Positions 5,290 to 56,600 of a DNA stretch of 60,601 nucleotides are shown here, piece after piece. The position numbers were made by a program, and so were the translations under genes. Where the stretch lies: positions 1-60,601 of IMG/VR virus record IMGVR_UViG_3300037511_000207. One strand, 5' to 3'. Numbering within the stretch: the stretch's first letter is position 1; each line of letters begins with the position of its first letter. This DNA comes from a virus (taxonomy: Duplodnaviria; Caudoviricetes). The notes beneath the pieces are model-generated. The model did no database searches and had not been told where the DNA came from. It saw nothing but the letters and a program-made list of their open reading frames with translations.

Positions 5290-5819
5290 GCTGCGCTCCC
5301 GCCTTCCGGGCGCAGCGGCGCGGGTCGCACGAGGCCCAGGCGCTTCTCGCACGCGCGGCGGTCCTTCGGGGCGCGGTATGCCATCATGTCGATGATGGTG
5401 GCGCCGGTGGCGCCCGAGGCCGCGCCGGGCGCGGGCGGCAGCAGCGGGGTCACCCGCGGCCCGGCGGGGCGGCGCGCGCCGGGCGGCGTGCTGCCGGTGA
5501 AGTCCTCGGGCACGTCGTTGGGCCACACCACGCTGCCGATGGTGGCCACCATGCCGAACACCGAACCCCAGGGCACGAAGCACCACTCCGGACGACCGCC
5601 GAACGACAGCGTGCAGCCAAAGCCGTCCTCCTCGATCACCAGGTCCGGGATCGGCCTCGGCAGGTTGTAGCCCACCACCAGCGGCAGGGCGGTGTCGCGC
5701 TGGAACTGTCGCGGGCAGACCACACCAGAACGGCGCGGATCCAGGTGGACGGTCACGTTGCGGCCGTCCTCGAGCAGGTTCAACAGGACGTCGTGCTTGT
5801 TGGGGGTCTGTGCGGTCAT
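5286..5819 (-). CDS. sspB: SspB-like ClpXP specificity adaptor
   Basis: VHLDPRRSGVVCP...PIPDLVI...CTLSFGGRPEWCFVPWGSVFG, followed by a disordered tail ending in RLGLVR. Confidence 0.75.
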   Translation of the reverse strand: MTAQTPNKHDVLLNLLEDGRNVTVHLDPRRSGVVCPRQFQRDTALPLVVGYNLPRPIPDLVIEEDGFGCTLSFGGRPEWCFVPWGSVFGMVATIGSVVWPNDVPEDFTGSTPPGARRPAGPRVTPLLPPAPGAASGATGATIIDMMAYRAPKDRRACEKRLGLVRPAPLRPEGGSAA

Positions 5820-5866
5820 GTTGCGGTCATTTCTTGTTGCGGGGCGGGTGGACGGGGTGGGCGGGT

Positions 5867-6385
5867 TCAGCGCACCGTCTGGCGCAGGAGCTTCTGCGCC
5901 TCGAGGATCTTGCGCTTGTCTTCGACGGACAGTTTGCTCAGGTCGGCCTTGGCGCTCTCGGCGGCGATACCAGCGACCTGCAGGTCTTTGATCAGGTGCA
6001 CGGTCTTCAGCAGATCTCCGAGGGACACGACCGGGCTCACTTCCAGGCTCGACTGGCGCAGCAGCTTGGCGGTCTCCAGTTGCACCATCCTGGTCAGGTT
6101 GCTGATGATCTGGTGCTCCGGGGTGCCAGTGCCGGCGTCCGATTTGGCCAGCTCCGTGGCGCGCTCGTAGGCCAGGGCGCGCTCGGCCCACTCGAACTTG
6201 GTGGCGACGGCCGCGCAGCGTGCCGGGGGCGCTCCACGCGCGGAGCCCTTGTCGAGCCACGCAAGGAAGTCGAGGTAGTCGTTGTCGCTCTCGCCGTCGG
6301 AGGTGCGGGGTTGCCAGATTTCCTGCAGCCCTGCGATGGCGGGCAGCGCGCGAACGGTGCGCGCGATGGCGTTGCGTTGGTTCAC
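5867..6385 (-). CDS. Hypothetical protein, possible terminase small subunit
   Basis: Helical 172 aa protein with WAERALAYE motif, upstream of terL. Confidence 0.35.
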   Translation of the reverse strand: MNQRNAIARTVRALPAIAGLQEIWQPRTSDGESDNDYLDFLAWLDKGSARGAPPARCAAVATKFEWAERALAYERATELAKSDAGTGTPEHQIISNLTRMVQLETAKLLRQSSLEVSPVVSLGDLLKTVHLIKDLQVAGIAAESAKADLSKLSVEDKRKILEAQKLLRQTVR

Positions 6386-7332
6386 TTCAGCCCCCGGCGC
6401 GCGAGTTCGGCCTGGTACAGCGCATGAGACGCAGGCGTGGGCGGGAACGGCTTTGGTTCATCGAACCACCTCGCACATGCATCCAGGACCCGCTGCTCGG
6501 CTCGGCGCCGGTCGTCTGCAGCGAACCAGTCCTCGCGGGTGAGCATGGGGCGCTCGGTGCGGGCCAAATCACGCTCATGAAGCTCCTCAGATGTGCGTTG
6601 ATACTCGTCTTCCGGGTGGTTGAAGGTACAGGCCTCGGTGCGGGTCGGTGCCCCGGGCAGGGAGAGCTGCCTCGCACACTCAGGACAGAGCGAGCTCCAG
6701 GCGTTCGCCGGATGACGGTTGCCATGCACCCAGTCGGTCGGCGCCGCATCGACCAGACACCAGGCGCATTCCCCAGCAGCGGGCTGCTGGTGCCCACAGT
6801 CTGGTCGCACTGAACCTGGGGCGCTTCCCCAGGTGTGTGCTGCAGGCTGCCCGGCGAGGTGGGTCAGCGCTTGGTCGATTCTCCAGCGGCGCGTCTTGCC
6901 TTCAGTCGTTAGCGCTGTCTTCACCAGACCCAGCAGCTCGTTCGCGGCGTCTCGCTCGGCCTGCAGTTTCGTTGCCCCCGCCTGGAACGCTCGCGCCCTT
7001 CGTTCGTTAGCGGCGCTCTCCGCCTTCAGCCGTTCGTTCTCCGCGCGCAGTGCGGCGGCCTCGGATTCGGCCGCGTCAGCTGTGGCCTCAGCCTGGACCA
7101 CGCACTCGGTGCAATGCTGCGCGTTCTTGTCCGCAGCCTCGGCACGGGCGTTGGCGGCGTCACGTTCCGAAGACAATTCGTGCGCCGCGATGCAGTGCTG
7201 TTTGATTGTCTCGCGCTGCTCCGCGACTCGGGCGGTCAGCGCGTCGATGATGCGGAGGGCCTTCCCGAACACCTTCGGGGTGGGCCAATTGCGCTCCTCC
7301 GCGGTCAGCGTCTCTGTTTTCGGTGTGGTCAC
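6382..7332 (-). CDS. Hypothetical coiled-coil protein with CxxC motifs
   Basis: ORF with GTGA overlaps at both ends. Confidence 0.55.
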   Translation of the reverse strand: MTTPKTETLTAEERNWPTPKVFGKALRIIDALTARVAEQRETIKQHCIAAHELSSERDAANARAEAADKNAQHCTECVVQAEATADAAESEAAALRAENERLKAESAANERRARAFQAGATKLQAERDAANELLGLVKTALTTEGKTRRWRIDQALTHLAGQPAAHTWGSAPGSVRPDCGHQQPAAGECAWCLVDAAPTDWVHGNRHPANAWSSLCPECARQLSLPGAPTRTEACTFNHPEDEYQRTSEELHERDLARTERPMLTREDWFAADDRRRAEQRVLDACARWFDEPKPFPPTPASHALYQAELARRGLK

Positions 7333-7501
7333 AGAGACACCTTGATGGTGGTGATCAGCTTGTGAATAAAGCCCGGCATAACGAGACCGGCTGCACCCCG
7401 GTTGAAAGCAATTTCCCCGAGGCGATCGAAGAAAGCGTCGTGTCGCTTCTGTTTCGCCAAACGAGCGCGTCGGTGACGGCGTGCTCGGATCTTCGCGTTG
7501 C

Positions 7502-7720
7502 TCATTCGTCCCCGCCCGCGCTGCGCCCGACCATGAACGGCGCCCCGTTCTCCTGGTGATCGCTGACGCGACCGATCTGGCGCGAGAGGGCTTTGGCCCA
7601 GCTGGCAAGGTCCTGGACCTCGAGTGTCTCGCTGTTCTCGACGAGCTCGTCGAGGGCGCTCTCGGCGATCTCGCGGAAGGCCTCCGTGGTGAATTGGACG
7701 TGCTTGGTTCGTGCTTTCAT
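7502..7720 (-). CDS. Hypothetical protein
   Basis: Protein-like composition; coupled to the next small ORF (7329..7505). Confidence 0.55.
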   Translation of the reverse strand: MKARTKHVQFTTEAFREIAESALDELVENSETLEVQDLASWAKALSRQIGRVSDHQENGAPFMVGRSAGGDE

Positions 7721-7803
7721 CGTGGCGTCTCTGGGGTGGTGCGGGTGATGGGTGGGTGCGGTAACAGTGCGGTCATTTTCATGCGCGCGAATCGCGACAA
7801 GGA

Positions 7804-9074: not shown

Positions 9075-9420
9075 AAATCAGGCCGGGCCCCGCTCAAACA
9101 GCAGCACCGCCATGGCCGTGTACCAGGTGTCGGCGTCGTACCAATCCGGGAAGGGGCACGACAGGACCAGATCCGCCCAGGCGCTCAGGTGCTTGGCTTC
9201 GAGTGCGGTCATTTTTCCACCAGAAAGCGGGTTGCGTGAATCGCGGCGCGGTCTGCCATGCAAGCGAAGCCTGCCAGCCGATCATGCCAACAGGCCTCCG
9301 CCACAGCCTCCGGCGAGGTGTCCGCGGCGCCAACGAATTTGGCCAGGCGAGCTACCCCGTCCGGATTGCGCGCGACCGCTTTCGCCAACTTCTCGGGCGT
9401 GATGCCGTTGTGGAAGCCGT

Positions 9421-10962
9421 TCATTTCTTCCCCGTGCTCTCCTGTGTCCGCTGCTTGGTGGCGATCTTCGCGGCGCCTGCGGCGCCCGGCGCCCCGGCGG
9501 GCGGCACGTCATCCGGTTCCCCGGCGCTCGTCACGTCGTCGCGGCTGTCCTCAGGCTTCTCGCCGGTGAGCTCGATGGTGGTGCCCTTGGCGCGCGCGGC
9601 GGCGATCTGCCCTGCCCCGAAGCCCATGTCCCAATACGCCTTGTCGGCGTTCGCCATGGCGGTGCGGGTCTGGGCCTTCTCGTTCTCGGAAGTGGCCCAC
9701 AGCGAGGGCCATATGACTTGCACAGGCTTGCCGCCGTTCACGGCCGTGAGCACCTTGTTGAGCTTGGGTCCCAGGCCGTATTTTTGGTCGTTCTCCACGT
9801 CGCTGTAGAACTGCGCCAGGTCGGTGTTGCCGCTGGCGTTGGCGTTCAGGCCGCTCGGTGAGCTCGAGAAGAAGATTCGCGCGGGCGTGCCGGCGGCACC
9901 GGCCACGGCCACCATGAACTGCTGCATGACAGCAGGGACGTCCGTGAGGGACACCTCGGTGCGCGTGTAGTCCTCGTTGTTGTCCGCATCGAGGAACATC
10001 ATCCGGTGGACGGACTTGGTCCGCTGCAACACCTGCAGGCGGTCCTCGATAATGGCGCGGTCCTCGCTCGCCAAGGCCTCCACGAGGCCCGCCAGCTTCA
10101 TGACGCCGATGCTGGCGTCCTGCAGCATGTTGCTCAGGGCGCTCCACGCCAGGCCGTACTGCGCGATCACGTTGAGCACAGGCGTCAGCACACTCACGCC
10201 GATCTCGGGGTAGTCCCCGATCAGGTCCGTGGCGGTGTTGGGCACGCGCAGCGGACGCCCGCTGAAGCGGATGCCGCGGCTGCTGTGGAACACCTGCCCG
10301 ACGCGCGGGTGCGGCGGACCGCTGCCATTGGCGATGATCTCGTAGAGCTCCGGCATGCCAAAGTCCCCGCGGGATGGGTCCGCGAATCGGGTCAGGCAGC
10401 GCAGCTCGGCCTGCGAGATCACGTCGAAGAAATTGATCCCGCCGGCGGCCTGCTCCGGGGTGAGCGCGCTGGCGGGGTTGCCGAGGGCGTACCCGCACAA
10501 GAGGACCGAGCCGCCATAGGCGCGGCCGTCGTTCACCGCGCGCTGGAAGGCGCCGTGGGGGAACCGTTCGGTGAAGTTGAGCGCCTGCCACTCTTGCAGG
10601 AGCTCTTCGCCAGCATCGGGGGTGTCGCCCGCGATCCCGAAGCCACGGACCATGGCGATGCTGGGGCGGAGCTCGATAATGCGATCCGCGAGCCAGTCGA
10701 AGGTGTAGAGCTTGTCGACGGTCTGCGCGGACGGGATACGCCCGCCCCCGTAGAGGAGCTGGCGCGTCGGATCATAGCCCTCGATCCCGAGCCCGGACAC
10801 CGGGTTGCCCCAGGCGCCCACCGCCACGCCCGAGGGGCACAGCGCGGCGCTCGTACCGGCGGCGGTGGAATCGGCGCGGACCGCGTCGATGGCGGTGGCG
10901 GCGCGGGTGACGGCGGCAGAGGCGGCGGAAAGTATGCGGTCGCGGAATCCCATGGTTTTCAT
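9421..10962 (-). CDS. Portal protein (DUF1073-like)
   Basis: RAYGGSVL, FGMPELYEI, FHSSR, SPSGLNA motifs; 513 aa; upstream of the minor head gene. Confidence 0.85.
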   Translation of the reverse strand: MKTMGFRDRILSAASAAVTRAATAIDAVRADSTAAGTSAALCPSGVAVGAWGNPVSGLGIEGYDPTRQLLYGGGRIPSAQTVDKLYTFDWLADRIIELRPSIAMVRGFGIAGDTPDAGEELLQEWQALNFTERFPHGAFQRAVNDGRAYGGSVLLCGYALGNPASALTPEQAAGGINFFDVISQAELRCLTRFADPSRGDFGMPELYEIIANGSGPPHPRVGQVFHSSRGIRFSGRPLRVPNTATDLIGDYPEIGVSVLTPVLNVIAQYGLAWSALSNMLQDASIGVMKLAGLVEALASEDRAIIEDRLQVLQRTKSVHRMMFLDADNNEDYTRTEVSLTDVPAVMQQFMVAVAGAAGTPARIFFSSSPSGLNANASGNTDLAQFYSDVENDQKYGLGPKLNKVLTAVNGGKPVQVIWPSLWATSENEKAQTRTAMANADKAYWDMGFGAGQIAAARAKGTTIELTGEKPEDSRDDVTSAGEPDDVPPAGAPGAAGAAKIATKQRTQESTGKK

Positions 10963-10966: not shown

Positions 10967-11005
10967 AGTGTAGCATTGGGTCGGTCTGCGGTCACGCTGC
11001 GGTCA
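10967..11005 (-). promoter_or_regulatory. Promoter overlapped by tandem TGACCGCA motifs
   Basis: GTGACC-N17-TACACT with extended -10 TG. Confidence 0.55.
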
Positions 11006-11554
11006 TTTTCCGTCGGAGTCGCGGACGGGCACGTGGCCCTTGCCGGGCACCCAGAAACCCCAGCCCGCCCGAGTGCCGTCGGGGCGCCGCGCGAGCGGCC
11101 CGCACACGAAGAGGGTCCAGACTCCCCGCGCGCCCGGGCCGGGGTGGAGCTCGGCGATCCGGTGATATCGGTCTGCGACGATCCAGTTGAGCCAACGGAC
11201 GCGGCGGTGATAAGCCCGGCCAACATGGCGATAGGGGTGGTCGTGGCCCCAGCAGCACCAGCGCCTCTCGATTTGCTCGGGTGTCTCGAAGATCTCTTCG
11301 GTGTAGCTCCCCCACAGAACAATGCTGAAGCTCCACGAGCTCGGATGGGAATGGTGGCCCGGCGCATCCGGGGCATGGAACTTGTGGAGGTACACGCGCC
11401 AGGGGTTGTGCCCGCTGGGGCCCTGCTCGCGCAAGGAGTAGCGATCGAGGTACGGCGCACCGTCGTGGCGGATGTGGCGGACCCAGCCAAAGGGCAGCCA
11501 CGAGGGGAGGACGCGCGCCAGAGCAGCGATGCGGGTGCGAATGTTGGTTGTCAT
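11003..11554 (-). CDS. Cupin-like hypothetical protein
   Basis: YLHKF...HHSHP...SIVLWGSYTEE...YHRI. Confidence 0.6.
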   Translation of the reverse strand: MTTNIRTRIAALARVLPSWLPFGWVRHIRHDGAPYLDRYSLREQGPSGHNPWRVYLHKFHAPDAPGHHSHPSSWSFSIVLWGSYTEEIFETPEQIERRWCCWGHDHPYRHVGRAYHRRVRWLNWIVADRYHRIAELHPGPGARGVWTLFVCGPLARRPDGTRAGWGFWVPGKGHVPVRDSDGK

Positions 11555-12529: not shown

Positions 12530-12533
<4 letters not shown>

Positions 12534-13051
12534 TTTCCTAGCTTCCAGTCGAATTTGGTGGTGGTTGCCTGCAGCACCAAGGCAGCGCGCGCGATGCCGA
12601 TGGCGTCGAGCACGTCGCCGTGGCGCGACGCAGGCACATTATTAGCTATGACCGCACGCTCACCTGCGGTCAAATTGCCCGCGATCTTTTTCTGTACCTG
12701 TTCCTTCGTCAGGCCTGCGCCGTAGCCCAACGCGGCACGCCAGTCCTGTGGGAGGATGGCGAGGCTGCGCGCCGCCGGCACACACGCGAGCGTGAACCCA
12801 GCACGGAAGGCGAGTTGGAGGATGCTGCGAGGGTCGGCGGGGCGCGCCGCCCGCCGCCCGCCACCGCGCGCGGGGAAGATCCACTGCAGCTCGGTGGCGG
12901 CGATGTCCCACCCCTGCCCGCCCGGGCCGGCCCAGATCCATTCCGTGCCGGCCCCGACCAGGCGGTGGCTGGCGCGCACCACCTCCCCCGTGGCGCCGTC
13001 GAGCTCGACAGCGCCCGGCTTCAGGCCAGGATCGATCGCCAGGATGTGCAT
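12530..13051 (-). CDS. RuvC-like Holliday junction resolvase
   Basis: ILAIDPG, ATE, PQDWR...KEQV, DVLDAIGIA. Confidence 0.75.
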
Positions 13052-13117
13052 GTCGGGTTCAGAGCCCCGCGACCGTGCGGCGGATGGCGCTACCGGCGAC
13101 CTGCGGGCACACTTCGG

Positions 13118-13558
13118 TCATTTTGCCACCTCTACGCGCCCGCTCGCCAGCGCGACACTACGATCGCCGGGCAAGATCTCCTGCCACGTGTCCGCCCACG
13201 GTCCCCGGAACGACAACACCCAGGTGCGGCCGCGGGAACGCACCATGTGCGTGGTAGATCGCAGCGTAATGACCGGGAAGATCGACGGCCAGTGGATGTC
13301 CAGACGCCGGAACGGATCGGGCTCGGTGCTGTGGTGATGGATCTCGTTCAGTTCACCTGACAGCACCCAACTGATGCAGTCGAAGGCGTGGCTGTGGTAG
13401 GCGTCGCGGCTGCCGTCCTCGAAGCGCAGCAGCACAATCGACCCGAGGCCCTTGAACTCGAACAGCCAGTGCGCCCACACAGCGCTCTCGGGGCCGCCGT
13501 CCTTGGTGACGCGCAGGATGTTGTGGCGGCGCGCCCACTGGCGCAGCGCGGCGATCAT
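13118..13558 (-). CDS. Cupin-like hypothetical protein
   Basis: YHSHAF...SWVLSGELNE...THMV. Confidence 0.6.
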   Translation of the reverse strand: MIAALRQWARRHNILRVTKDGGPESAVWAHWLFEFKGLGSIVLLRFEDGSRDAYHSHAFDCISWVLSGELNEIHHHSTEPDPFRRLDIHWPSIFPVITLRSTTHMVRSRGRTWVLSFRGPWADTWQEILPGDRSVALASGRVEVAK

Positions 13559-18253: not shown

Positions 18254-18344
18254 ATCGTCCTCGGTTCCATCCCGCACCCCGCCGGCCATGGCGGGGTGCG
18301 GTCATTCTGCGGTCAGATTCACTCAGCGCGATGGCGGTGTGCGA

Positions 18345-18923
18345 TCACGCCGCCTGTTGCTGTGCAGCCTGCTGCGCGGCGCTGGCGACCAGGAACGTGT
18401 CGCGCGGGAAGATCTTCGGGGACCCGTCCGCGTTCTTGTGCTTGATCACGCCTTCCTTGTTCGGCTTGCAGGGCTCGAGCGCACGCTGCCCACGGAACGC
18501 CAGGTCGAGGTCCACGCCCTCCACGGCCGGCGCGGTCGCCGTCGCGGGGGTGCCCTTGCTCAGGCCCATGAGCTCGCCCAGGGCCTCGGCCGCGTTGAAC
18601 GTCACCACGTTGGTGGCGCCGTTCACCGCCATCAGCAGGGGCGTCACCTTCTCCCAGAACATGTTGAAGTCCACGTCGCTGCTGCCGGGGAAGTACGCGA
18701 GGGTGTAGGTCGCGCCCTCGGGCACCAGCTCGCTGCTGCTGCGGGTGATCTGGAACTTGAACTCGTACAGGTTGCCGGCCTTGGGGGCCCGCTGCTTGCT
18801 GACGCGCTTCAGGATGGCGTCGTACTGCACTTCCACGTCGGGGAGCTTCGGGGTCCGGGTGCCGGCGGCCACCTTCTTGGGGTCGTAGCTCTTGGCGAGG
18901 TCGTCATCTCCGATATCGTACAT
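18345..18923 (-). CDS. Hypothetical protein, possible ssDNA-binding protein
   Basis: Strongly GC3-biased codons; located in the replication block. Confidence 0.45.
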   Translation of the reverse strand: MYDIGDDDLAKSYDPKKVAAGTRTPKLPDVEVQYDAILKRVSKQRAPKAGNLYEFKFQITRSSSELVPEGATYTLAYFPGSSDVDFNMFWEKVTPLLMAVNGATNVVTFNAAEALGELMGLSKGTPATATAPAVEGVDLDLAFRGQRALEPCKPNKEGVIKHKNADGSPKIFPRDTFLVASAAQQAAQQQAA

Positions 18924-19036
18924 GATCTAATGGATCCGTTTCTTTGGTTGCTTGTTGTGTCGTTGGGTTGTCAGCACCGCGCGCCTGACGCCCCACCCCA
19001 TGCGTGGGTTTCGCTGCGCGCGCGGTGCGGTCATAG

Positions 19037-24044: not shown

Positions 24045-24104
24045 GCGGTCAGATTGTTCTGCCACGCGCGCTGCACGCGCGCCAGTCCGCGCGCGCCGCG
24101 GCGG

Positions 24105-28392: not shown

Positions 28393-28512
28393 GACTTCCT
28401 GCTAGGATAGCACTCCGGCCGGAGTGCCGCCACTGTGCGGTCATATTCCGGCCCGCCGCGGGCGACGGGACGCACTCAAGTTTCGACCTGCCGATGCCGT
28501 CTTTCTGTCCGC

Positions 28513-40098: not shown

Positions 40099-40371
40099 TC
40101 ACTTGCACGCCTCCTGGCTGCGCTGCAGCTCACTCATGATGTCCGGGTAGGACGGACACTCGGCGAACGGCACGAAGGTATCCCCGAGCCGACACTCGGT
40201 GTCCGCGCGCTCCTGCGCTCGCATGTCGGCGGCCGCGTAGCAGACCGCGCGGCTCGGCGAGACGGCGGCCGGCGTCGCCGCACCGCAGCCCCAGATCAGC
40301 ACCGCGAAGAACAGCACCACGGCCTGCACAACGCGACCCGCCGCGAGGCGGATAGTGTGGACGGCGTTCAC
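40099..40371 (-). CDS. Small lipoprotein
   Basis: Hydrophobic signal plus IWGC lipobox; one of four small ORFs at 39711-40526. Confidence 0.5.
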   Translation of the reverse strand: MNAVHTIRLAAGRVVQAVVLFFAVLIWGCGAATPAAVSPSRAVCYAAADMRAQERADTECRLGDTFVPFAECPSYPDIMSELQRSQEACK

Positions 40372-40559
40372 TGCCCGACCCCCGCATCGGGGCTGGGCGC
40401 GGGCGCGCTCGGCGGCACGGGCGCGCTCTCAGGCAGCGCCTCGAGCGCCTGCTGCGCAGCGGCGAGCAGCGCGAGCAGGGCGGCGAGGACGGCGGCGATT
40501 TTCTTTTTGGACGGAAACTTGATCATGGTGTGGTGGTCTCCCTTGCGGTCAGATGGCGG

Positions 40560-41000
40560 TCAATTTCCCCCAAGCACGAAGCTGCCCGGGGCGATCTTGG
40601 CAAAGAGCTTCCAGTTGACGTCGCCCTTCGTGACGCCCACGGTCTGCTCCGCCATGCTCATGATGCGGCACTGGTCGGTCTGAATCAGCGTGGAGCCCGA
40701 TTCGTCCTGGACGAGCAGCGGCAGGATGCCAGCGCCGTTGAAGGCCTTGCGGTCCGCGATGTGCATCGCGCTCAGCACTTCGTTGCACGAGCTCGTGCCC
40801 TTGAACGACAGCTCGATGTCGTAGCCGTCGTCGTTGGTGCCGCAGATGGCGTAGTGGCCGTCGGCGCCGGGGCCCTCGGTCACGTACGCATCGCCGCGCG
40901 GCGTGATTTTGAAGAACGGATCCGACCTGCCGTCCTCAAGCGGAACACCGCCAAGAATGACGCGGAAAACTTTGGATTCGAATGCGACCAGGCGTGACAT
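40560..41000 (-). CDS. Tail tube protein (DUF3277-like)
   Basis: 146 aa after the sheath gene; GADG, SSCNEVLS. Confidence 0.8.
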   Translation of the reverse strand: MSRLVAFESKVFRVILGGVPLEDGRSDPFFKITPRGDAYVTEGPGADGHYAICGTNDDGYDIELSFKGTSSCNEVLSAMHIADRKAFNGAGILPLLVQDESGSTLIQTDQCRIMSMAEQTVGVTKGDVNWKLFAKIAPGSFVLGGN

Positions 41001-42395: not shown

Positions 42396-42433
42396 AGGAT
42401 AGCACCGGATGAGGTGCGGTCAATCTGCGGTCA
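42396..42433 (-). promoter_or_regulatory. Promoter for tail genes, overlapped by tandem TGACCGCA
   Basis: TTGACC-N16-TATCCT with extended -10 TG. Confidence 0.55.
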
Positions 42434-47139: not shown

Positions 47140-47177
47140 GTTTAGCAGGTGCGGTCAACTGTGCAAGGGTGCGGTCA
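47140..47177 (-). promoter_or_regulatory. Promoter for head genes with two TGACCGCA sites
   Basis: TTGCAC-N16-TAAACT with extended -10 TG. Confidence 0.55.
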
Positions 47178-47723: not shown

Positions 47724-48769
47724 TCGCGCGGCTCCCGCGGCCCCGCTTCGGCGCACACCGACGCGCCGGCGCTGTCACGCGAAACCTGCGCAACTGGGTC
47801 CGGGCGCGCGAGCGCTCGGTCATAAGTGGCGCAGACAGTGACCGAACGCACGGTGCACGCAACCGGAAGCACCAACACCAACGCCAGTGCGAGCGTGAAA
47901 CCGATACAGATCGACGCCTCTGTCATGACTCCACTCCCGGCGTGTTGTCGGGCTCGTCACCAGGGCCGTCCAACTCCGAAATCATCAGTTCCTCAAAGTA
48001 CAGACGATCGCACCCGACATGCCCGAGCAGCCACCCCCAAAACAGGTTCTCCAGCACGGTCTGCGCGTCGCGCAGCGCCTCCTCGAAGTCCTGGCGCTGG
48101 TACGGCGTCAGGTCCACCGCCGCACCTGCCAGTAGGTCACGCCTGCGCGGCGCAAACCGACCTGGGAATCACCGTGCACAACGTCGACGTCCGCGCGGAC
48201 CGCGAGCACTGGAGCCGGGCGGATCGCGCTCGACCGCGCCGCTCGCCGCACCAACGGCACCGGCGGCGTGTGCCTGCTCGGCGCCAGGTCGTGGTACTCC
48301 AGCAGCTCGACCACCGTCGCGCCTCCGCCGGCGATCACGTCACACCCCACAGCGCCAGCGGCGCGCCATTGGCATCGCGCACCTCGACGAACCGCCGCCC
48401 GCGCTCGCGGGCTCGGCGCTCGAAGTCCTTGCGGGCTGCCGCTCGAAACTCGGGATCGTTCCACTCAGCAGTCTCGCCACTCGAGAGCGAGACAGTCATC
48501 AGCGCGCCGCGCGGCGGGCGGACGGTTCCGGGCACCATGTCGGTCACTGGCGCCCCTCTTCCACCAGCACGACGGTCGGTGCCTCGTGCCACTCGCCGGT
48601 GATGAACTCCTCGGGGATGCGCGGCGGGGCCCAGGCGGGGCGCGGCTGTTGCACCAGCCGCAACGCAGCCCAGAGGCCTGCAGCCTGCAGCACAGCGAGG
48701 GTGATTGCGATCGTCATGTGGATATCCTGGCAGCCGAGACGTCTGCGGTCAAGCTGCGGTCATTTTCAT

Positions 48770-50037: not shown

Positions 50038-50550
50038 TTACTCGTTCTCGTCCGTTTCGTCGGTGTTGGGTGGGTTGCAGTGCTTGCACTGGCAGTTGGG
50101 ATCCGCGTGGCGCTTCAGGGTGTCGAGGTAGATCTGGACGCGCTTGCCGTTCTCGTCGCGCCACTTCGTGCGCTTGCGTCTTGGCTTCGGTCCGCGCACG
50201 CCGAGCGGGCGCTGTTCCCACGGCGTGCCTAGTATCGTGGCGGGTGGCGCGGCCAGCGCCGCGGCGATGGCGCGGGCCTCAGGGTCCACGGGCAGGTGGA
50301 GCGCCTCGAGCGTGTTGAACAGCGCACGCAATGCGAGGACCTCGTCTTCGCCCCAGCCCTGGATCGTCACGTGCCCGACCCAACGCCCCGTCCAACCGCC
50401 GCGCGCGCCTGCGCCGTCGGGACTCGCTGTCATGTACTGCGGCGTGTCGAACGGGCTGTCGTAGACCACGCGGACCGCGGCGGTAGCCGAGCACAGGCGC
50501 TGTTTTTGGTACCACGTCGTGCGCACGTGCTCGGTGAGTTGACGCGACAT
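50038..50550 (-). CDS. Hypothetical protein
   Basis: First gene of the leftward operon; C-terminal Cys/His cluster. Confidence 0.5.
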   Translation of the reverse strand: MSRQLTEHVRTTWYQKQRLCSATAAVRVVYDSPFDTPQYMTASPDGAGARGGWTGRWVGHVTIQGWGEDEVLALRALFNTLEALHLPVDPEARAIAAALAAPPATILGTPWEQRPLGVRGPKPRRKRTKWRDENGKRVQIYLDTLKRHADPNCQCKHCNPPNTDETDENE

Positions 50551-50679
50551 GTGCGGCGCCGGCGGCGGGATGGGTGGAGCGGTCACGCCTCCAAAGCATG
50601 CGGTCAAATTCACTCCTGCGCAAGCAGTGCGGTCATTTTCTGCTAAGCTGATCTTCACCCAGGTATTTCCCTGGAGGAG

Positions 50680-50910
50680 GTGCACCCACCCGTGTACGAC
50701 CACGAAGATATCGGTACGTTCGTCAAAGACACCCTCGAAGCGGAAGTCCTCAAGCTTCGCGCAAAGATCCGCCAACTACCCGACCAGTCCTTGCTCGCAT
50801 ACCTGCAGGCATCCGCGCTGGACACATCTGCCAACGCGCAAGTTATGCGGCTTCTGGTCCTTCAGGCGCGCAACGCCAATGCCGCGAATGCGCGGAGACT
50901 CGGCAAGTGA
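50680..50910 (+). CDS. Hypothetical protein
   Basis: GTGA-coupled to the primase gene. Confidence 0.5.
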   Translation: MHPPVYDHEDIGTFVKDTLEAEVLKLRAKIRQLPDQSLLAYLQASALDTSANAQVMRLLVLQARNANAANARRLGK

Positions 50911-53135
50911 CGCCCACACCCAACACGGTGCAGCAGGCCACTCTGCTCGCGCATCAAGGCTTTCGTCTCGTTCCGACCAACGGCAAGGTAGCCACCACCG
51001 ACGGTTTCGGCGCCGAAAACCCTACATTCACGTGCGGCCCGGAGTGGTTCGCCAATCCCGGCACCAAGGTGGGGATCCTGTGTGGCCCCTGCCCTGCGCT
51101 CGGATCTGACTGGCTCTTGTGCGTCGACATCGACGGCGAGAACTGGGACGAGGTACCCGAACTCCGCGCCTTCGTCGACCTGCTGCCGCTGCACACGCTC
51201 GAGAGCCACGGCGGGCGTCACATCTTCCTCCGCGTCCCGGCAACGCGCGCACTCGAGCTCGAGCAGTGGCCCAACGTGTTCCGTACCAAGACGCGCACTG
51301 GCTGCGCCATCGACCTGAAATGGGCTGGCGGCTACGCCTGCGAGGCCTGGGACTGGGAGGCCAGCACGGACACCACAGCGCTGGCGGCGGCGATCGCACC
51401 CCTGCCCGAGGCGGCCCTGGCCATGCTGCTGGAGGCGCGGGCCGCACGCACGACGTCCGCGGCAGGCACCCCGCCCGCGCTGCCCGCGCCCGATCGTGGC
51501 GACGACTTCCTACGCGCGCAGGGCTTCGATCCCGAGCTGGTTCGTGAGGACGCCAAGAAGTGGCTGCTCTCGCCCGCAGCGCCAATGCCGGACGCCGTCG
51601 GTGATGGCGGGACCGCCATGCTGCTGGCCGTGGGCGCGCTCATGGTGGGTTTCGGGCTCGATGATGAGACCGTCTTTGACCTGACTGCGGAGGTCTACTG
51701 CCCGCGCGCGTGGCCCGGGGACGCCCCCGACGAGACCCAGATTGCCCACAAGATCGACCAGATCGACATCAACGGGTCCGAGCGCTTCACTGTGCCGCTG
51801 CAGCTCGCCGTCGTAGCGCGCGAGACCCGAAGGGGTGCAGCTCTGATCCTGGCGCCGGTTTCGATTCCCGAGTTGCCCGCGTCAGTGCCGCCCACACCCG
51901 ATCGTGACCCGACACAGCTACTGGCGACGCTCGAATACCGCCTATCACGCACCGCCAAGGGCGAGCTCAAGAACTCGGTGCACAACACCTTGCTCGTGCT
52001 GTCGCTCCACCCACTGTGGCGCGGGCTATTCGGTTACGACGAGTTCACGCACGACGTTGTTTTTTTGCGCGACCCTATTGGTGTGCTCGAGCTCAACCAA
52101 GTACACGCCGGGGACATCTTCAACGAGGACGTTCATCCCACCCCAATCCGCTCCTGGTTCGGCCGCGGCTTCCACGAGCCCAGCACCGCTGAGATGATCG
52201 CCGCCGTCCACACCGCCGCCAAGGAGCGGCGATTCCACGCCGTGCGGCGCTACTTCGACGGCGTGCGCGGCACCTGGGATGGCGTCGATCGCAACCTGGT
52301 GGACTACCTCGGGGCAGAGCCCACCCCCTACCACCGCGCTGTGTGTGCCAAGTGGCTTCGCAGTGCCGTGGCGCGCGCCATGGTGCCGGGCGCCAAGGCG
52401 GACACCATGCTGATCCTCGAGGGCCGCCAGGGGCTTCGCAAGAGCACGGCGCTGCGGTGCCTGTGCCCCGATGTGCGTTGGTTCTTCGAGGCCGCCTCGC
52501 GCGATGTCGGCTCGAAAGACTTCATGCAGGACATGCGGGGGAAATGGCTCTGCGAGATCCCCGAGGTGGACCAGCTCATTCAGTCCCGGGATGAGAGTGA
52601 GCTCAAGGCACTGCTTTCCAGGGTGTCGGACAACTACCGCGCCTCGTACGCCAGACGGACGCAGGACTTCCTGCGACAACTGGTCTTCGGGGGGACCACC
52701 AACAAGGGGGGTTACCTCCGCGACGAGACGGGCAACCGCCGCTACTGGGCAGTCGCGTGCGGGGTGATCGGGCCGATCCTCGACGGTGCCATCTGCGACG
52801 ACCGAGATCAGCTCTGGGCGCAGGCACTGGCAGAGTACGAGGCCGGTGAGGTCTGGCACCTCACGTCCGAGGAGGACGTCCTGGCTACTCAGGAACAGGC
52901 GGCGCGCCTCGAGACCGACGTGTGGACCGATTCGGTGCAAGCGTGGCTCGAGGTCCGCGGCGACGAGCCCTTCACCCTGGTCGAGGTGCTCGGGTCACTC
53001 AGCGGGGCCAAGCCTGTGGCTGACCTCGACCAGAGGGACATGAACCGGATGGCGAAACTGTTGCGGCACCTCGGGTACGAAGCACGACGCCAGCGCTGCG
53101 GCGGCAGACCGACCAAGCTTTGGGTCCGTTCGTGA
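50907..53135 (+). CDS. Prim-Pol primase fused to VapE/VirE-type helicase
   Basis: VDID, GRHIF; GRQGLRKST Walker A, YRASY, GTTN, DETGNRRYW. Confidence 0.9.
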   Translation: MTPTPNTVQQATLLAHQGFRLVPTNGKVATTDGFGAENPTFTCGPEWFANPGTKVGILCGPCPALGSDWLLCVDIDGENWDEVPELRAFVDLLPLHTLESHGGRHIFLRVPATRALELEQWPNVFRTKTRTGCAIDLKWAGGYACEAWDWEASTDTTALAAAIAPLPEAALAMLLEARAARTTSAAGTPPALPAPDRGDDFLRAQGFDPELVREDAKKWLLSPAAPMPDAVGDGGTAMLLAVGALMVGFGLDDETVFDLTAEVYCPRAWPGDAPDETQIAHKIDQIDINGSERFTVPLQLAVVARETRRGAALILAPVSIPELPASVPPTPDRDPTQLLATLEYRLSRTAKGELKNSVHNTLLVLSLHPLWRGLFGYDEFTHDVVFLRDPIGVLELNQVHAGDIFNEDVHPTPIRSWFGRGFHEPSTAEMIAAVHTAAKERRFHAVRRYFDGVRGTWDGVDRNLVDYLGAEPTPYHRAVCAKWLRSAVARAMVPGAKADTMLILEGRQGLRKSTALRCLCPDVRWFFEAASRDVGSKDFMQDMRGKWLCEIPEVDQLIQSRDESELKALLSRVSDNYRASYARRTQDFLRQLVFGGTTNKGGYLRDETGNRRYWAVACGVIGPILDGAICDDRDQLWAQALAEYEAGEVWHLTSEEDVLATQEQAARLETDVWTDSVQAWLEVRGDEPFTLVEVLGSLSGAKPVADLDQRDMNRMAKLLRHLGYEARRQRCGGRPTKLWVRS

Positions 53136-53963: not shown

Positions 53964-54215
53964 TCACACCGTGGTGCGGCCCGCGGCACGGCGGGCCAGG
54001 TTGCGCTCGGCAGCGCGGTCCGCCTCAAGGAGCCGGGCCGCCAGCGGGGCGCGCTGCATGGGCGCTACCCGGGCGAGGTACACCGCCGCACTGGCGAACA
54101 GGTCGACGTGGTCATCGCGGCGGCTGAGGATCTCGAGACCCTGGCGAGCGGTGCTGAAGTCACCGGCGAGCAGGGCGGCGTTGGTGGTGTCGAACAGCTG
54201 CGTCGTGGTCTTCAT
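53964..54215 (-). CDS. Small early protein
   Basis: ATG 8 nt after the promoter motif at 54224-54254. Confidence 0.6.
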   Translation of the reverse strand: MKTTTQLFDTTNAALLAGDFSTARQGLEILSRRDDHVDLFASAAVYLARVAPMQRAPLAARLLEADRAAERNLARRAAGRTTV

Positions 54216-54899: not shown

Positions 54900-54983
54900 A
54901 TCGGGAATCGCCGCCGCGCTGACGAATTGACTCTAGACTGACCGCAGACGACCGCTCACCTCTAACAGGAGCACGACACCACC

Positions 54984-55202
54984 ATGACCATCATCAACGC
55001 CGCCCGCACGATCATCGCCACAGCCGCGCTGCTGCTCGCGCCCGCCGTCTGCCACGCCACGCCACCCACCACGATCGCCGACGCGGCGCGCGCCCCCGGG
55101 GCCAGCTGCGCCCGGGCCACCTACATCCGCCCGAGTGACGGCGCGATCGTGACCCGCGTCGTGTGTGCTCTGCCGGCGCCGGCCCCGCGGGGTGCCAAGT
55201 GA
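54984..55202 (+). CDS. Small secreted protein
   Basis: AGGAG RBS; signal-peptide-like N-terminus. Confidence 0.55.
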   Translation: MTIINAARTIIATAALLLAPAVCHATPPTTIADAARAPGASCARATYIRPSDGAIVTRVVCALPAPAPRGAK

Positions 55203-55369
55203 TCTACACCGACGCACAAGGACGGCCCGTCCCGAAGCCCGATCCGGCGGATTTTCCCGACACAGTCTCCTTTATCCGTGCCTACCACGCATGGCGCGAC
55301 CGCATCGCTGATGTAGGTAACAAGGCGTTCGAGCAGCAGTTCCGCAAGTCCCTCCGAGGTACCAAGTGA
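55199..55369 (+). CDS. Small hypothetical protein
   Basis: GTGA coupling. Confidence 0.5.
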   Translation: MIYTDAQGRPVPKPDPADFPDTVSFIRAYHAWRDRIADVGNKAFEQQFRKSLRGTK

Positions 55370-55635
55370 TGCCGCCGCACGCCGAGGCCATCGTGGTGGT
55401 CGCGAGTCATCGCGCGCGGTCCGTGACCGCTACCATGGCGCAAGCGGAGGCCCTCGCTGACCTGGTGCGCGATCACGGTCTGCCCGCCCGGGTCGTGGTC
55501 GGCCGCAAGCGCGGCGGCATCCGGATCCGCGCAGCCATGCCGCGCCGCCCCACCCGCAGCGGGGTGTGCTGCTGGCGCAGCCCGGTCTGGCTGCCCGTCG
55601 ACCGCGCCGCGGTGCTCGAGTGGCTGGGTTACTGA
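55366..55635 (+). CDS. Small hypothetical protein
   Basis: GAGG RBS; coupled to the upstream gene. Confidence 0.5.
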   Translation: MMPPHAEAIVVVASHRARSVTATMAQAEALADLVRDHGLPARVVVGRKRGGIRIRAAMPRRPTRSGVCCWRSPVWLPVDRAAVLEWLGY

Positions 55636-55777
55636 CCGCACCGCCCCGCCTGACCCGAAAAGGGAATCGACACCGACCAGCATAATTGACTCCAGACTGA
55701 CCGCAGACAGTCGTTCTGTACTAGTGAGAGCAACGACGCGGCACCCGCCGCGACCCACCCCAAAGGACACCGCCACC

Positions 55778-56059
55778 ATGATCCGAGCCACCGTCTACGC
55801 CCGCAGCCAGTACAACCCCTGTTTCGAGGCTGGCGAGAGCCGCACCTTCGGCACCGAGCGTGCCGCCGAGCTCTGGGCTGCCAGTGTGCTGCCGCCCACC
55901 GTGACCACGAACGACTGCTACCACCGCGACGTCGGTCGCGCCCCGAGCGTTCGCCTCGCTCGAGTCGATGGCAACGGCGAGAGCAAGACCCTGCTGCGCT
56001 ATGTCGAAGCGCCCGTGGTCATCCACCGCAGCGTCGGGGAGCTCGGGTACGGTGCCTAA
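55778..56059 (+). CDS. Small hypothetical protein
   Basis: AAGGA RBS after the promoter motif. Confidence 0.55.
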   Translation: MIRATVYARSQYNPCFEAGESRTFGTERAAELWAASVLPPTVTTNDCYHRDVGRAPSVRLARVDGNGESKTLLRYVEAPVVIHRSVGELGYGA

Positions 56060-56549
56060 TCCGACATACGGACAGCTCGCCGCCGGCCGCCGCGACCTGA
56101 AAGGCAAGGCTCGCGCAGCCGCGGAGCTCGAGGCCTGGCACCAGTCACCCGAAGGCGTGACCGCTTACAAGGCCGCCTTCTCCGCCGCGTGCGAGGGTGC
56201 CAACAAACTTGGCATGGATCACGGCATCACGTTCGATGGCCATGTCTCTGGCGGCCGGTTGATCTACGGTGGCTGGCGCGTGTGGCCGCTGCCGGCGAAG
56301 CAGTACCGCTACGGCGCCGACCACACCTGCGGCGTGATCCACCCGGTGGATCGCGAGCGCACGCTGTCCGGACATGGCCCGGAGGCGATCCGCCCGGCGA
56401 GCCCAGTCGGCCCAGACCACCATGGCGGGCCGTGGATCGGGCGCGAGGCGGCGCTTGAGGAGATCCGCGCGTGGCAGGGTGGTGAGCCACTCGGCCCGAA
56501 CGGACTGCTCCCGGCCGGTCACGAAAACGATCCGTCGCGTCGAAAATGA
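56052..56549 (+). CDS. Hypothetical protein
   Basis: GGAG RBS; stop codon is the TGA of the next promoter motif. Confidence 0.55.
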   Translation: MPNPTYGQLAAGRRDLKGKARAAAELEAWHQSPEGVTAYKAAFSAACEGANKLGMDHGITFDGHVSGGRLIYGGWRVWPLPAKQYRYGADHTCGVIHPVDRERTLSGHGPEAIRPASPVGPDHHGGPWIGREAALEEIRAWQGGEPLGPNGLLPAGHENDPSRRK

Positions 56550-56600
56550 CTCCAGACTGACCGCAGACCGCCGTTCACATCAACAGGAGACAACGACGCC

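What the first reader, a model, noticed from the sequence alone, without database searches (positions are those of the whole stretch)
5811..56565. Genome-wide, transcription-oriented TGACCGCA motif in 11-bp tandems (stoperator-like)
Seen: TGCGGTCA on the + strand (TGACCGCA on the coding strand) recurs across the leftward arm, often preceded by AAA(A) on the coding strand. Pairs exactly 11 bp apart start at 5811/5822, 7757/7768, 10987/10998, 18297/18308, 23181/23192, 24033/24044, 40544/40555, 42415/42426 and 48744/48755 (three members have one mismatch). Singles occur at 9204, 19026, 28436, 33919, 47150, 47170, 50599 and 50628. In the rightward arm the motif flips (54939, 55633, 55698, 56558). 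A few exceptions exist (12648, 59371). Most sites lie at gene junctions or over promoter -35/spacer regions. Known: mycobacteriophage L5 uses many asymmetric oriented stoperators, and 11-bp direct repeats suit head-to-tail winged-helix binding. Inference: a single phage regulator, possibly 529..1272, silences or activates the whole genome through these sites.
Basis: partly seen in the sequence, partly recalled or inferred. Interest (0 to 1): 0.72.

Follow-up and report, generated by a model that had tools for sequence, protein, structure and literature searches.

The report
Genome-wide oriented operator-like octamer pairs
A soil phage genome carries dozens of copies of one eight-base word, mostly between genes, pointing the way the genes are read and often doubled one DNA turn apart, which looks like docking sites for a single phage regulator that controls nearly the whole genome.

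Summary
TGACCGCA occurs 37 times, against about 3 expected under a codon-aware null. Nineteen copies are fully intergenic (0.19 expected; 9% of the DNA is intergenic). 32 of 37 copies, and all 22 intergenic or boundary copies, point with local transcription. Ten pairs sit exactly 11 bp apart, and no other spacing recurs.

The octamer is not a fixed promoter element. It lies at -35, in the spacer, upstream of promoters, on start or stop codons, or at junctions with no promoter. The same right-arm promoter scaffold occurs with the octamer (3 copies) and without it (4 copies).

The best reading is operator / roadblock ("stoperator-like") sites for a head-to-tail DNA-binding protein. That is inferred, not shown.

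It belongs to an unnamed 25-member family and sits beside the integrase with its own promoter, placed for a leaderless transcript. Nothing here shows that it binds the octamer.

DNA of related phages could not be reached, so conservation is untested. Verdict: a new variant of a known kind (oriented genome-wide phage repeats); moderate interest.

The parts
5811..5829 (-). Exact tandem pair (two TGACCGCA, 11 bp start to start). The A before the downstream copy plus its TG is the called start codon of gene 5286..5819.
7757..7775 (-). Tandem pair whose downstream copy is TTACCGCA, in the 83-nt gap upstream of gene 7502..7720. No -10-like element.
9204..9211 (-). Single copy. Its TGA is the stop of gene 9209..9424, and the preceding A plus TG is the start of gene 9078..9212.
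10987..11005 (-). Exact tandem pair upstream of the portal gene. The upstream copy's TGA is the stop of gene 11003..11554. The downstream copy sits at -35, 22 nt before the T of TGCTACACT.
13102..13120 (-). Degenerate tandem pair (TGACCGAA / TGCCCGCA) after an AAAA run, in the 66-nt gap upstream of gene 12530..13051.
18297..18315 (-). Exact tandem pair. The 3' half of the downstream copy enters a strong hairpin (a fold of -35.7 kcal/mol over the 83 nt folded).
19026..19033 (-). Single copy followed at once by a long G+C hairpin (a fold of -38.4 kcal/mol over the 83 nt folded), upstream of gene 18345..18923.
19379..19420 (-). Two copies 34 bp apart inside the 3' end of the helicase-like gene 19308..20981. 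The downstream copy is 13 nt before the T of AGCTATCCT.
22671..22678 (-). Intragenic single copy, with a 2-mismatch partner 11 bp downstream, inside gene 22506..24044.
23181..23199 (-). Exact tandem pair inside the 512-codon ORF 22506..24044, co-oriented with it.
24033..24051 (-). Tandem pair whose downstream copy is TGACCGCG. The called ATG of gene 22506..24044 starts at the last A of the upstream copy.
28436..28443 (-). Single copy 34 nt before the T of TGCTATCCT, upstream of the gene block that ends in the endolysin (27150..27677).
33919..33926 (-). Single copy 15 nt before the T of TGCTACAGT, in the 3' end of baseplate gene 33830..34213 and upstream of the GIY-YIG homing-endonuclease ORF.
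40544..40562 (-). Tandem pair whose upstream copy is TGACCGCC; that copy's TGA is the stop of gene 40560..41000. It lies 25 nt before the start of gene 40368..40526.
42415..42433 (-). Exact tandem pair upstream of the tail-sheath gene. The downstream copy supplies the -35 of the one strict sigma-70-type match in this arm that bears on a site (TTGACC-16-TATCCT with TG).
47150..47177 (-). Two copies 20 bp apart upstream of the head-maturation protease gene. The downstream copy lies in the promoter spacer, 13 nt before the T of TGCTAAACT.
48744..48762 (-). Exact tandem pair, 34 and 45 nt before the start of gene 48544..48717.
50599..50635 (-). Two copies 29 bp apart upstream of gene 50038..50550 (start taken as the ATG at 50550).
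54928..54946 (+). Right-arm element: a degenerate upstream copy (TGACTCTA, inside TTGACT) plus an exact copy 11 bp downstream, within the scaffold TTGACTnnAG-N15-CCGCTC, upstream of gene 54984..55202.
55633..55640 (+). Single copy whose TGA is the stop codon of gene 55366..55635.
55687..55705 (+). Right-arm element: TGACTCCA plus an exact copy 11 bp downstream, upstream of gene 55778..56059.
56547..56565 (+). Right-arm element: TGACTCCA (its TGA is the stop of gene 56052..56549) plus an exact copy 11 bp downstream, upstream of gene 56601..56891.
529..1272 (+). Candidate regulator (247 aa): a disordered basic N-terminus, a 54-residue helix (47-100), and a C-terminal winged-helix domain (153-240, pLDDT mostly above 90). 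It belongs to a 25-member family with no Pfam model. An exact octamer on the opposite strand (1262..1269) overlaps its 3' end and the stop of the HNH gene.
494..521 (+). Sigma-70-type promoter match (TTGACT-16-CACAAT), placed so that transcription would start at or next to the ATG at 529 (leaderless).
459..466 (+). One-mismatch copy (CGACCGCA after AAAATT) in the divergent region between the integrase gene and gene 529, co-oriented with gene 529.
12649..12672 (.). Two exact copies in inverted orientation, 8 bp apart, inside gene 12530..13051. This is the only inverted arrangement.

Best explanation
The octamers are binding sites on double-stranded DNA for one sequence-specific phage protein. 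[quoted passage not shown]

Where a site overlaps a promoter's -35 or spacer, the bound protein would block initiation. At sites between or inside genes with no promoter, it would act as an orientation-dependent roadblock to elongating RNA polymerase. Together the roughly 24 site clusters would keep both arms silent, most plausibly in the lysogen, while the integrase, gene 529 and the primase/helicase gene carry no co-oriented exact site.

The most likely binder is the coiled-coil / winged-helix protein encoded at 529..1272.

Shown: the enrichment, spacing, orientation and placement of the sites, and the predicted fold of the candidate. Inferred: that a protein binds, that the effect is negative, that it is polar, and which protein it is.
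For: (1) Enrichment is about 100-fold in intergenic DNA (19 against 0.19) and about 5-fold inside genes (15 against 2.88).

(2) 11 bp is the only recurrent spacing (10 pairs). One helical turn is a property of duplex DNA, not of RNA.

(3) There is no fixed geometry relative to promoters. At the six GCTAnnnT -10-like elements that have an octamer within 70 nt upstream, the nearest copy starts 13, 13, 15, 21, 22 and 34 nt before the -10 T. That puts it in the spacer, over -35, or upstream. Other clusters sit on start or stop codons or at junctions with no -10 at all.

(4) The same right-arm scaffold TTGACTnnAG-N15-CCGTTC occurs seven times. Three copies have an exact octamer in the spacer (54927, 55686, 56546). 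Four do not (54255 on the minus strand, 54334, 54609, 57245). So the octamer is an add-on to these promoters, not part of them.

(5) All 22 intergenic or boundary copies are co-oriented with transcription. The same is reported for stoperators, where reversing a site abolishes repression (passages of PMC9283540).

(6) Sites precede genes of every class: portal, sheath, protease, lysis block, replication genes and right-arm genes. That fits global silencing better than control of one temporal class.

(7) Candidate protein. It has a confident winged-helix domain. The nearest structures are all winged-helix nucleic-acid binders (Foldseek E from 4e-3; VIA Z up to 9.2), and the atlas gives MarR/PadR/HTH_5-type neighbours. 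The putative recognition helix and wing are nearly invariant across 25 family members. The gene lies next to the integrase, on the strand opposite to almost all lytic genes, with one of the two strict sigma-70-type matches in the first 20 kb scanned, positioned for a leaderless transcript.
Against: No binding evidence of any kind.

No related genome could be examined, so neither conservation of the sites nor co-variation with the protein is tested. The one relative's fragment (L160, 1,088 bp) has no exact octamer.

Other DNA-binding proteins must exist in this phage, because three palindromic operator-like sites at 53.67-53.75 kb have no assigned binder. About 40 small proteins have no family, so 529..1272 is only the one recognisable candidate.

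Its family hits are below Pfam thresholds.

The right-arm scaffolds lack a canonical -10, so an activator requirement cannot be excluded.

Two downstream copies double as good -35 elements (portal, sheath), which also fits a promoter role.

Anti-oriented intragenic copies (5) slightly exceed the roughly 1.4 expected by chance.

The gene map is home-made.
Confidence: 0.5

Rival explanations
1. Positive control: the tandem is the docking site of a phage activator, or a specificity element that redirects host RNA polymerase to phage promoters, replacing or supplementing the -35.
For: In the portal and sheath clusters the downstream copy is itself a -35 (TTGACC / GTGACC), 16-17 bp from a TG-extended -10. 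In the right arm the upstream degenerate copy coincides with TTGACT, and these scaffolds have no canonical -10, so they might need help. Head-to-tail 11-bp repeats overlapping -35 are how OmpR/PhoB-type activators bind (recalled). Orientation with transcription is obligatory for such elements.
Against: The distance from octamer to -10 varies from 13 to 34 nt. Many clusters have no -10-like element within reach, or lie on start codons or inside genes. Four of seven right-arm scaffolds lack the octamer. Sites precede genes of all classes, not one temporal class. No receiver or Trans_reg_C domain, and no sigma-like protein, appeared among the 65 proteins scanned with Pfam.
Confidence: 0.2
2. RNA-level signal: the word is read on the mRNA (AAAAUGACCGCA...), for example as a binding site for a translational repressor, a processing site between cistrons, or an antitermination/pause element.
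For: Strict co-orientation of all intergenic copies. Location at cistron junctions, often using the motif's own UGA as the upstream stop (6 cases) or its AUG as the start (3 cases). Three sites are followed at once by strong hairpins. Some winged-helix domains bind RNA (SelB appears among the structural neighbours).
Against: An exact 11-nt register (10 pairs, no other recurrent spacing) has a natural reason on duplex DNA and none on single-stranded RNA. The distance to the next start codon ranges from about -1 to 110 nt. Sense-strand folds of the tandems are negligible (0 to -2.7 kcal/mol). No Rfam family matches anywhere in the window. Copies lying at or upstream of the -35 of the portal, sheath and right-arm promoters would not be transcribed from those promoters.
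Confidence: 0.1
3. A DNA-level function unrelated to transcription or to a phage regulator: a host-factor site, a Chi- or KOPS-like polar word, replication-fork barriers, packaging signals or integrase arm-type sites.
For: It is an oriented octamer, like Chi and KOPS (recalled). Orientation flips near the origin-like iteron region at 53.1-53.3 kb. The one copy inside the integrase gene (59371) keeps the right-arm orientation rather than that gene's. In five unrelated viral locus types the same tandem lies near a tyrosine integrase, in four of them 25-316 nt beyond its 3' end. The replication terminator protein RTP is among the candidate's fold neighbours.
Against: The 100-fold intergenic concentration and the tandem form are not properties of Chi or KOPS. 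On the circular map orientation does not flip opposite the putative origin, as bidirectional replication would require; it follows the transcription units. In the window the sites are dispersed, not clustered beside int. The tandem's frequency in other viral contigs is near the control level (75 against 51 loci), and no common neighbour gene exists.
Confidence: 0.1
4. No present function: the copies are remnants of duplicated promoter or junction modules spread by recombination.
For: Right-arm elements share up to 57 nt beyond the octamer. One metagenome contig joins 54912 to 56547, from one element to another (single contig, 24-nt side).
Against: In the left arm only the octamer and the A-run are conserved; the 3-nt spacers and the flanks differ. 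Ten independent pairs keep the exact 11-bp register. Strict orientation.
Confidence: 0.05

Closest known systems
Stoperators and operators of Cluster A mycobacteriophages (L5 gp71, Bxb1, TipsytheTRex repressor)
   Same: More than twenty copies of an asymmetric site dispersed over the genome, at promoters and in short intergenic spaces, with a striking correlation between site orientation and direction of transcription (passages of PMC9283540). The window shows all three.
   Different: There the site is a single 13-mer read by a monomer with two different domains (HTH plus 'Stoperator' domain). Here the site is an 8-mer, commonly doubled head to tail at 11 bp. The only recognisable candidate is a coiled-coil winged-helix protein. 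No window protein matched a PHROG in the transcription-regulation category. The host is probably a member of Pseudomonadota, not an actinobacterium. Function is untested here.
Oriented intergenic repeats of T1-like phages (T1, Stevie), and repeats of Nostoc cyanophages A-1/N-1
   Same: Asymmetric, predominantly intergenic repeats, 16-20 per genome, oriented with transcription in T1 and Stevie. Their role is unknown and their authors compared them with stoperators (passage of PMC4319613; passage of PMC4916379).
   Different: Those are 22-bp (T1-like) or about 11-bp single units in lytic phages, and in the Nostoc phages they are not consistently co-oriented. None is described there as an 11-bp tandem of an octamer.
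Tandem direct-repeat sites of winged-helix response regulators (OmpR/PhoB type) - recalled, not tested
   Same: Head-to-tail binding of two winged-helix domains to direct repeats one helical turn apart, often overlapping the -35.
   Different: No receiver domain or Trans_reg_C domain in any of the 65 proteins scanned. The variable position of the window's sites relative to -10 is unlike the fixed geometry of such activators.
ArsR/MarR/PadR-type winged-helix repressors
   Same: The fold of residues 153-240. JGI labels three family members as ArsR-family regulators.
   Different: All Pfam hits are below threshold (HTH_5 13.8 bits against 22; HTH_20 16.2 against 27). Those families typically bind palindromes as symmetric dimers (recalled). 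This protein has a long N-terminal helix and a disordered basic tail instead of their dimerisation cores.

Membership tests
Stoperator system (Cluster A mycobacteriophage type) | More than 20 copies of one asymmetric site dispersed over the phage genome | tested here: met
   37 exact copies in about 24 clusters, against about 3 expected
Stoperator system (Cluster A mycobacteriophage type) | Sites at promoters and in short intergenic spaces | tested here: met
   19 fully intergenic plus 3 boundary copies of 37, in 8.97% of the sequence (P = 4.5e-11)
Stoperator system (Cluster A mycobacteriophage type) | Site orientation correlates with direction of transcription | tested here: met
   32 of 37 overall; 22 of 22 intergenic or boundary copies
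Stoperator system (Cluster A mycobacteriophage type) | A single 13-bp site read by a monomeric gp71-type repressor (HTH plus Stoperator domain) | tested here: not met
   The unit is an 8-mer, in 10 cases doubled at 11 bp. None of 89 proteins matched a PHROG in the transcription-regulation category. The candidate is a winged-helix protein with a coiled coil.
Stoperator system (Cluster A mycobacteriophage type) | Bound repressor stops elongation, and reversing the site abolishes the effect | not testable with these tools
   Needs reporter assays with the site in both orientations
ArsR/SmtB (HTH_5) or related Pfam winged-helix families | Score above the family's gathering threshold | tested here: not met
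   HTH_20 16.2 bits (cut-off 27), HTH_12 14.1 (21.4), HTH_5 13.8 (22); all fall on residues 165-224
Winged-helix DNA-binding fold (superfamily level) | H1-strand-H2-H3 followed by a beta-hairpin wing | tested here: met
   The AlphaFold2 model has H153-170, E172-174, H175-181, H192-204, E209-217, E221-229, with pLDDT mostly above 90. The top structural matches are all winged-helix domains.
OmpR/PhoB-type response regulator | Receiver domain plus Trans_reg_C winged helix | tested here: not met
   No such Pfam hit among the 65 proteins scanned. The remaining proteins had structural or replication PHROG assignments.
Integrase arm-type sites (attP arms) | Direct repeats clustered beside the integrase gene, flanking a core site | tested here: not met
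   Sites are dispersed over 56 kb. Near int there are only single copies (59371 inside the gene, 1262) and a one-mismatch copy at 459.

The most novel reading that the evidence does not exclude
A stoperator-type, whole-genome silencing system has arisen independently of the actinobacteriophage one, in a temperate myovirus of a soil proteobacterium. An unnamed family of coiled-coil winged-helix proteins (25 members found) would load head to tail on tandem octamers one DNA turn apart. It would block host RNA polymerase both at promoters and, in a direction-dependent way, at some twenty gene junctions.
Probability: 0.3. Interest if true: 0.75.

Novelty: new variant of a known kind. Interest (0 to 1): 0.55.

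Why it matters
Polar, genome-wide silencing by a repressor that also stops elongation has been worked out only in Cluster A mycobacteriophages. Similar oriented repeats in T1-like phages and in cyanophages remain unexplained.

This phage would be a second case with a different molecular design: a short word read twice in tandem, probably by a winged-helix protein, in a different host phylum. That would show the strategy is convergent. It would also give a compact, portable, orientation-dependent transcription block.

The strict 11-bp register and the contrast between promoter scaffolds with and without the octamer make clean predictions for binding and reporter assays. The candidate protein family has no Pfam model.

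Tried and rejected
RELATIVES FOR COMPARATIVE TESTS. The sheath protein found only 24-32% identical viral loci (3) and no bacterial genome locus. The 529-protein family alignment found nothing in viral contigs or species genomes, and one 1,088-bp metagenome fragment with no exact octamer. A 12-kb megablast against deposited phages found nothing.

A UNIVERSAL TGACCGCA-BINDING MODULE.
- The tandem occurs in 75 viral loci, some as 3-6-copy intergenic arrays.
- The same pattern read backwards gives 51 loci.
- 20 of the 75 loci are one phage family.
- Neighbouring genes are heterogeneous: integrases, D5-type primases, an S24 repressor, a terminase.
- None encodes a relative of the 529 protein (best tblastn E = 2.9).
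- The one excess is that 12 of 75 loci have three or more copies in register, against 0 of 51 for the control.

ANTISENSE TERMINATORS. Six tandems or singles score as hairpin plus T-run on the antisense strand. The stems are weak and inconsistent (-1.8 to -9.3 kcal/mol over nine pairs). Terminator-like hits are not above shuffles (12 against 11.0, 7 against 10.4, 9 against 9.6).

STRICT SIGMA-70 PROMOTERS. Not enriched (2, 2 and 1 found, against 1.5, 1.7 and 1.2 in shuffles).

SELF-ASSOCIATION OF THE 529 PROTEIN. The job with two copies of residues 40-247 returned no verdict (score 0.10, mark 0.42). It is neither support nor evidence against.

PUBLIC READS. All runs are kept as contigs. The pieces laid were short and mostly coding, and gave no transcript ends and no usable variation at the sites.

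OTHER SCANS. Rfam gave no match. No tRNA was found. No earlier notes exist for this genome. NCBIfam gave nothing meaningful for the 529 protein or four other small proteins.

LITERATURE. The octamer alone occurs in 1,676 papers. With 'bacteriophage' there are 43 and 35 papers. Judging from the 15 titles and abstract openings listed for each search only, they look like primer or incidental hits, and none describes it as a phage regulatory word. I did not open them.

MINI-ORF IDEA. The 11-bp register automatically makes NTG-ACC-GCA-NNN-TGA a five-codon frame. I rejected this as evidence because it follows from the motif and the spacing alone.

Full report
WHAT THE WINDOW IS

The window is a whole IMG/VR virus record of 60,601 bp, classed as linear and about 67% complete. 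Its two ends overlap by 239 bp at 98.7% identity. The overlap lies inside a tyrosine-integrase gene, and the two protein fragments are 76/78 identical. The unit genome is therefore about 60.36 kb and effectively closed, with one integrase of about 513 residues.

No gene caller was available. I built a gene map from GC3 and codon-usage likelihoods and corrected it in three places:
- start of the 529 gene, supported by the family alignment;
- start at 50550;
- a missed lower-GC homing-endonuclease ORF.

PHROGs and Pfam show a myovirus-type genome. On the minus strand lie the terminase, an HNH endonuclease, a T5 A1-like protein, portal, split DNA polymerase, helicase, exonuclease, lysis genes, baseplate, tape measure, sheath, capsid and protease, from about 1.3 to 50.6 kb. 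A primase/helicase gene lies on the plus strand (50907..53135). It is followed by a 1.2-kb non-coding switch region, a short plus-strand arm of small unknown genes and a helicase (54.3-58.8 kb), and the integrase.

The nearest deposited phages by the A1-like protein infect Alphaproteobacteria (55% identity to PhiJL001). One homologue of the 529 protein is labelled as coming from a Pseudomonadota MAG. The DNA occurs in soil metagenomes.

THE OBSERVATION

The octamer occurs 37 times: 29 with TGACCGCA on the minus strand and 8 on the plus strand. Dinucleotide shuffles give 3.9 +/- 2.1.

A codon-aware null keeps every protein and each gene's codon usage. It gives 3.18 +/- 1.63 (maximum 9 of 400), so codon choice and Met-Thr-Ala starts do not explain the count.
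- Fully intergenic: 19 copies against 0.19 expected, in 8.97% of the sequence.
- Straddling a gene boundary: 3 copies.
- Intragenic: 15 copies against 2.88 expected.

32 of 37 point with local transcription. All 22 intergenic or boundary copies do. The five exceptions are all inside genes.

Ten pairs lie exactly 11 bp apart: six exact on both copies, three with one mismatch, and one doubly degenerate at 13102/13113. No other spacing between 8 and 40 bp occurs twice.

Outside the octamer only an A-rich run at -4 to -1 of the upstream copy is conserved. An unbiased k-mer count on oriented intergenic DNA returns GAAAATGACCGCA(G/C) as the dominant signal.

Eight exact copies and one degenerate pair were missed.

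ANATOMY OF THE CLUSTERS

There are about 24 clusters, roughly one every 2.5 kb. They precede genes of all classes.

The motif's own TGA serves as the stop codon of the upstream gene in six cases (1262, 9204, 10998, 40555, 55633, 56547). The base before it plus TG is, or abuts, a called start codon in three (5819, 9212, 24044). So the sites are packed into very short junctions.

Six clusters are followed by a recurring -10-like element, (T/A)GCTAnnnT. The nearest octamer starts 13, 13, 15, 21, 22 and 34 nt before its T. In the portal and sheath clusters the downstream copy is the -35. The sheath promoter is one of only five strict sigma-70-type matches in the 60 kb scanned. In the protease and helicase-end clusters the copy lies in the spacer, and in the lysis cluster it lies upstream.

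Many other clusters have no -10-like element at all (5811, 7757, 18297, 24033, 40544, 48744 and the intragenic pair 23181).

In the right arm I found a promoter-like scaffold, TTGACTnnAG-N15-CCGTTC, seven times. Three copies carry an exact octamer in the spacer, with the degenerate upstream partner coinciding with TTGACT (54927, 55686, 56546). Four carry none (54255 on the minus strand, 54334, 54609, 57245).

WHAT THIS ARGUES

A promoter element or a classical activator site should keep a fixed distance to the -10 and should be present in every copy of a promoter family. Neither holds.

An RNA signal has no reason to keep an 11-nt register. The sense-strand tandems do not fold (0 to -2.7 kcal/mol), and no Rfam family matches.

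The antisense 'hairpin plus T-run' reading thrown up by the terminator scan is weak and inconsistent (-1.8 to -9.3 kcal/mol).

A Chi- or KOPS-like word would not concentrate 100-fold in intergenic DNA. Its orientation would also follow replication, yet on the circular map the orientation changes only where transcription changes.

One model accounts for all of the following: the helical-turn spacing, the indifference to promoter geometry, the sites on start and stop codons, the intragenic pair, and the strict polarity. That model is a duplex-DNA site for a protein that binds head to tail and interferes with RNA polymerase, at initiation where it overlaps a promoter and during elongation elsewhere. 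This is the logic described for Cluster A mycobacteriophage operators and stoperators. There, reversal of a site abolishes repression (passages of PMC9283540). That the effect here is negative and polar is inference.

THE CANDIDATE BINDER

It gives four sub-threshold hits, all to winged-helix families and all on residues 165-224. It has 24 homologues at 39-57% identity, three of them on ~60 kb contigs.

The family alignment shows a variable basic N-terminus, a coiled-coil-like segment and a nearly invariant C-terminal domain. AlphaFold2 on this alignment gives a 54-residue helix and a confident H-strand-H-H-wing-H domain (mean pLDDT 77.5; C-terminal blocks 90-97).

Structural and feature-based neighbours:
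- Foldseek's best PDB matches are all winged-helix proteins at E = 0.004-0.06.
- The Foldseek-independent search gives Z up to 9.2 to winged-helix domains of many families, none standing out.
- The protein atlas gives MarR/PadR/HTH_5/HTH_24-type neighbours.

The gene lies beside the integrase, on the opposite strand to nearly all lytic genes. It sits behind a TTGACT-16-CACAAT match placed to start transcription at its ATG. By recalled analogy with lambda cI, that is what one expects of a lysogeny-maintenance gene. A one-mismatch octamer lies about 28 nt upstream of that -35.

None of this shows binding. About 40 small proteins have no family. At least one further DNA-binding protein must exist for the palindromes in the switch region.

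WHAT COULD NOT BE DONE

The self-association job gave no verdict. Public runs are stored as contigs and gave no transcript ends.

COMPARISON WITH WHAT IS KNOWN

The three sequence-level hallmarks of stoperators are met. The molecular ones are not: a single 13-mer read by a monomeric gp71-type two-domain repressor.

Oriented intergenic repeats of unknown role have been noted in T1-like phages (passage of PMC4319613) and mentioned for Nostoc cyanophages (passage of PMC4916379). The word 'stoperator' occurs in 24 papers of the library. Judging by their titles, these concern actinobacteriophages except for those two, a T1-like phage paper and a conference report. Of the 24 I opened only three, the two above and PMC9283540, and read passages of each.

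I found no mention of this octamer as a phage signal (listings only).

I therefore file it as a new variant of a known kind. It works like a stoperator system as far as sequence can tell, and it is not a member of the Cluster A family.

SIDE RESULT ON OTHER PHAGES

The same tandem occurs in 75 viral loci. Most of that is chance level, since the reversed control gives 51. But 12 loci have three to five exact copies in register, against none for the control. In five unrelated locus types a tyrosine integrase lies nearby, in four of them within 25-316 nt of its 3' end. That would suit arm-type sites.

The remaining array types sit beside primases, an S24 repressor or a terminase, and none encodes a relative of the 529 protein. 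I see no evidence that these arrays and the window's system share a binder.

Noticed in passing
window 1-239 and 60363-60601: The two ends of the record overlap by 239 bp at 98.7% identity, inside the integrase gene. The genome is effectively closed at about 60.36 kb with one full-length tyrosine integrase of about 513 aa. This contrasts with the 'linear, 67% complete' label.
   Followed up: yes
window 53672-53741: Three palindromes TGGCACA-N3-TGTGCCA, spaced 22 and 29 bp, in the switch region between the two arms. They look like classical dimer operators (an O1-O3-like set). No binder was identified.
   Followed up: partly
window 53138-53265 (and 53403-53414): 9-bp GATCACCC(T) repeats in two inverted arrays directly after the primase/helicase gene. 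They look like origin iterons.
   Followed up: no
window 53801-53964: Three 37-bp direct repeats (86-100% identical), spaced 60 and 67 bp, upstream of the leftward gene 53964..54215.
   Followed up: no
window 54255(-), 54334, 54609, 54927, 55686, 56546, 57245: Seven copies of a bipartite promoter-like scaffold, TTGACTnnAG-N15-CCGTTC (one has CCGCTC, one TCGTTC), with constant spacing and no canonical -10. This may be a promoter class for the right arm whose sigma factor is unknown.
   Followed up: partly
window 33198-33833 (-): A lower-GC ORF encoding a GIY-YIG / group I intron-type homing endonuclease (TIGR01453, 67.1 bits against a cut-off of 56.05), inserted between baseplate genes.
   Followed up: yes
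window 54912 / 56547: One wastewater-run contig joins 54912 to 56547 with 17 other letters between, running from one right-arm element to another. That would suggest module exchange at these repeats. It rests on a single contig with a 24-nt side.
   Followed up: no
L010-L084 / L085-L159 (viral contigs): TGACCGCA arrays of 3-6 copies at 11-bp period occur in several unrelated phages with 36-70% G+C: 12 of 75 loci have three or more exact copies in register, against 0 of 51 for a reversed control. In five locus types a tyrosine integrase lies nearby, some with an arm-DNA-binding domain (PF14657). They may be arm-type sites.
   Followed up: partly
window 18250-18305, 18960-19030, 28395-28440: Strong G+C hairpins (folds of -29 to -38 kcal/mol over the 83 nt folded) lie directly downstream of three octamer sites on the sense strand. 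In two of them the stem starts within the motif's 3' end. No U-run follows.
   Followed up: partly
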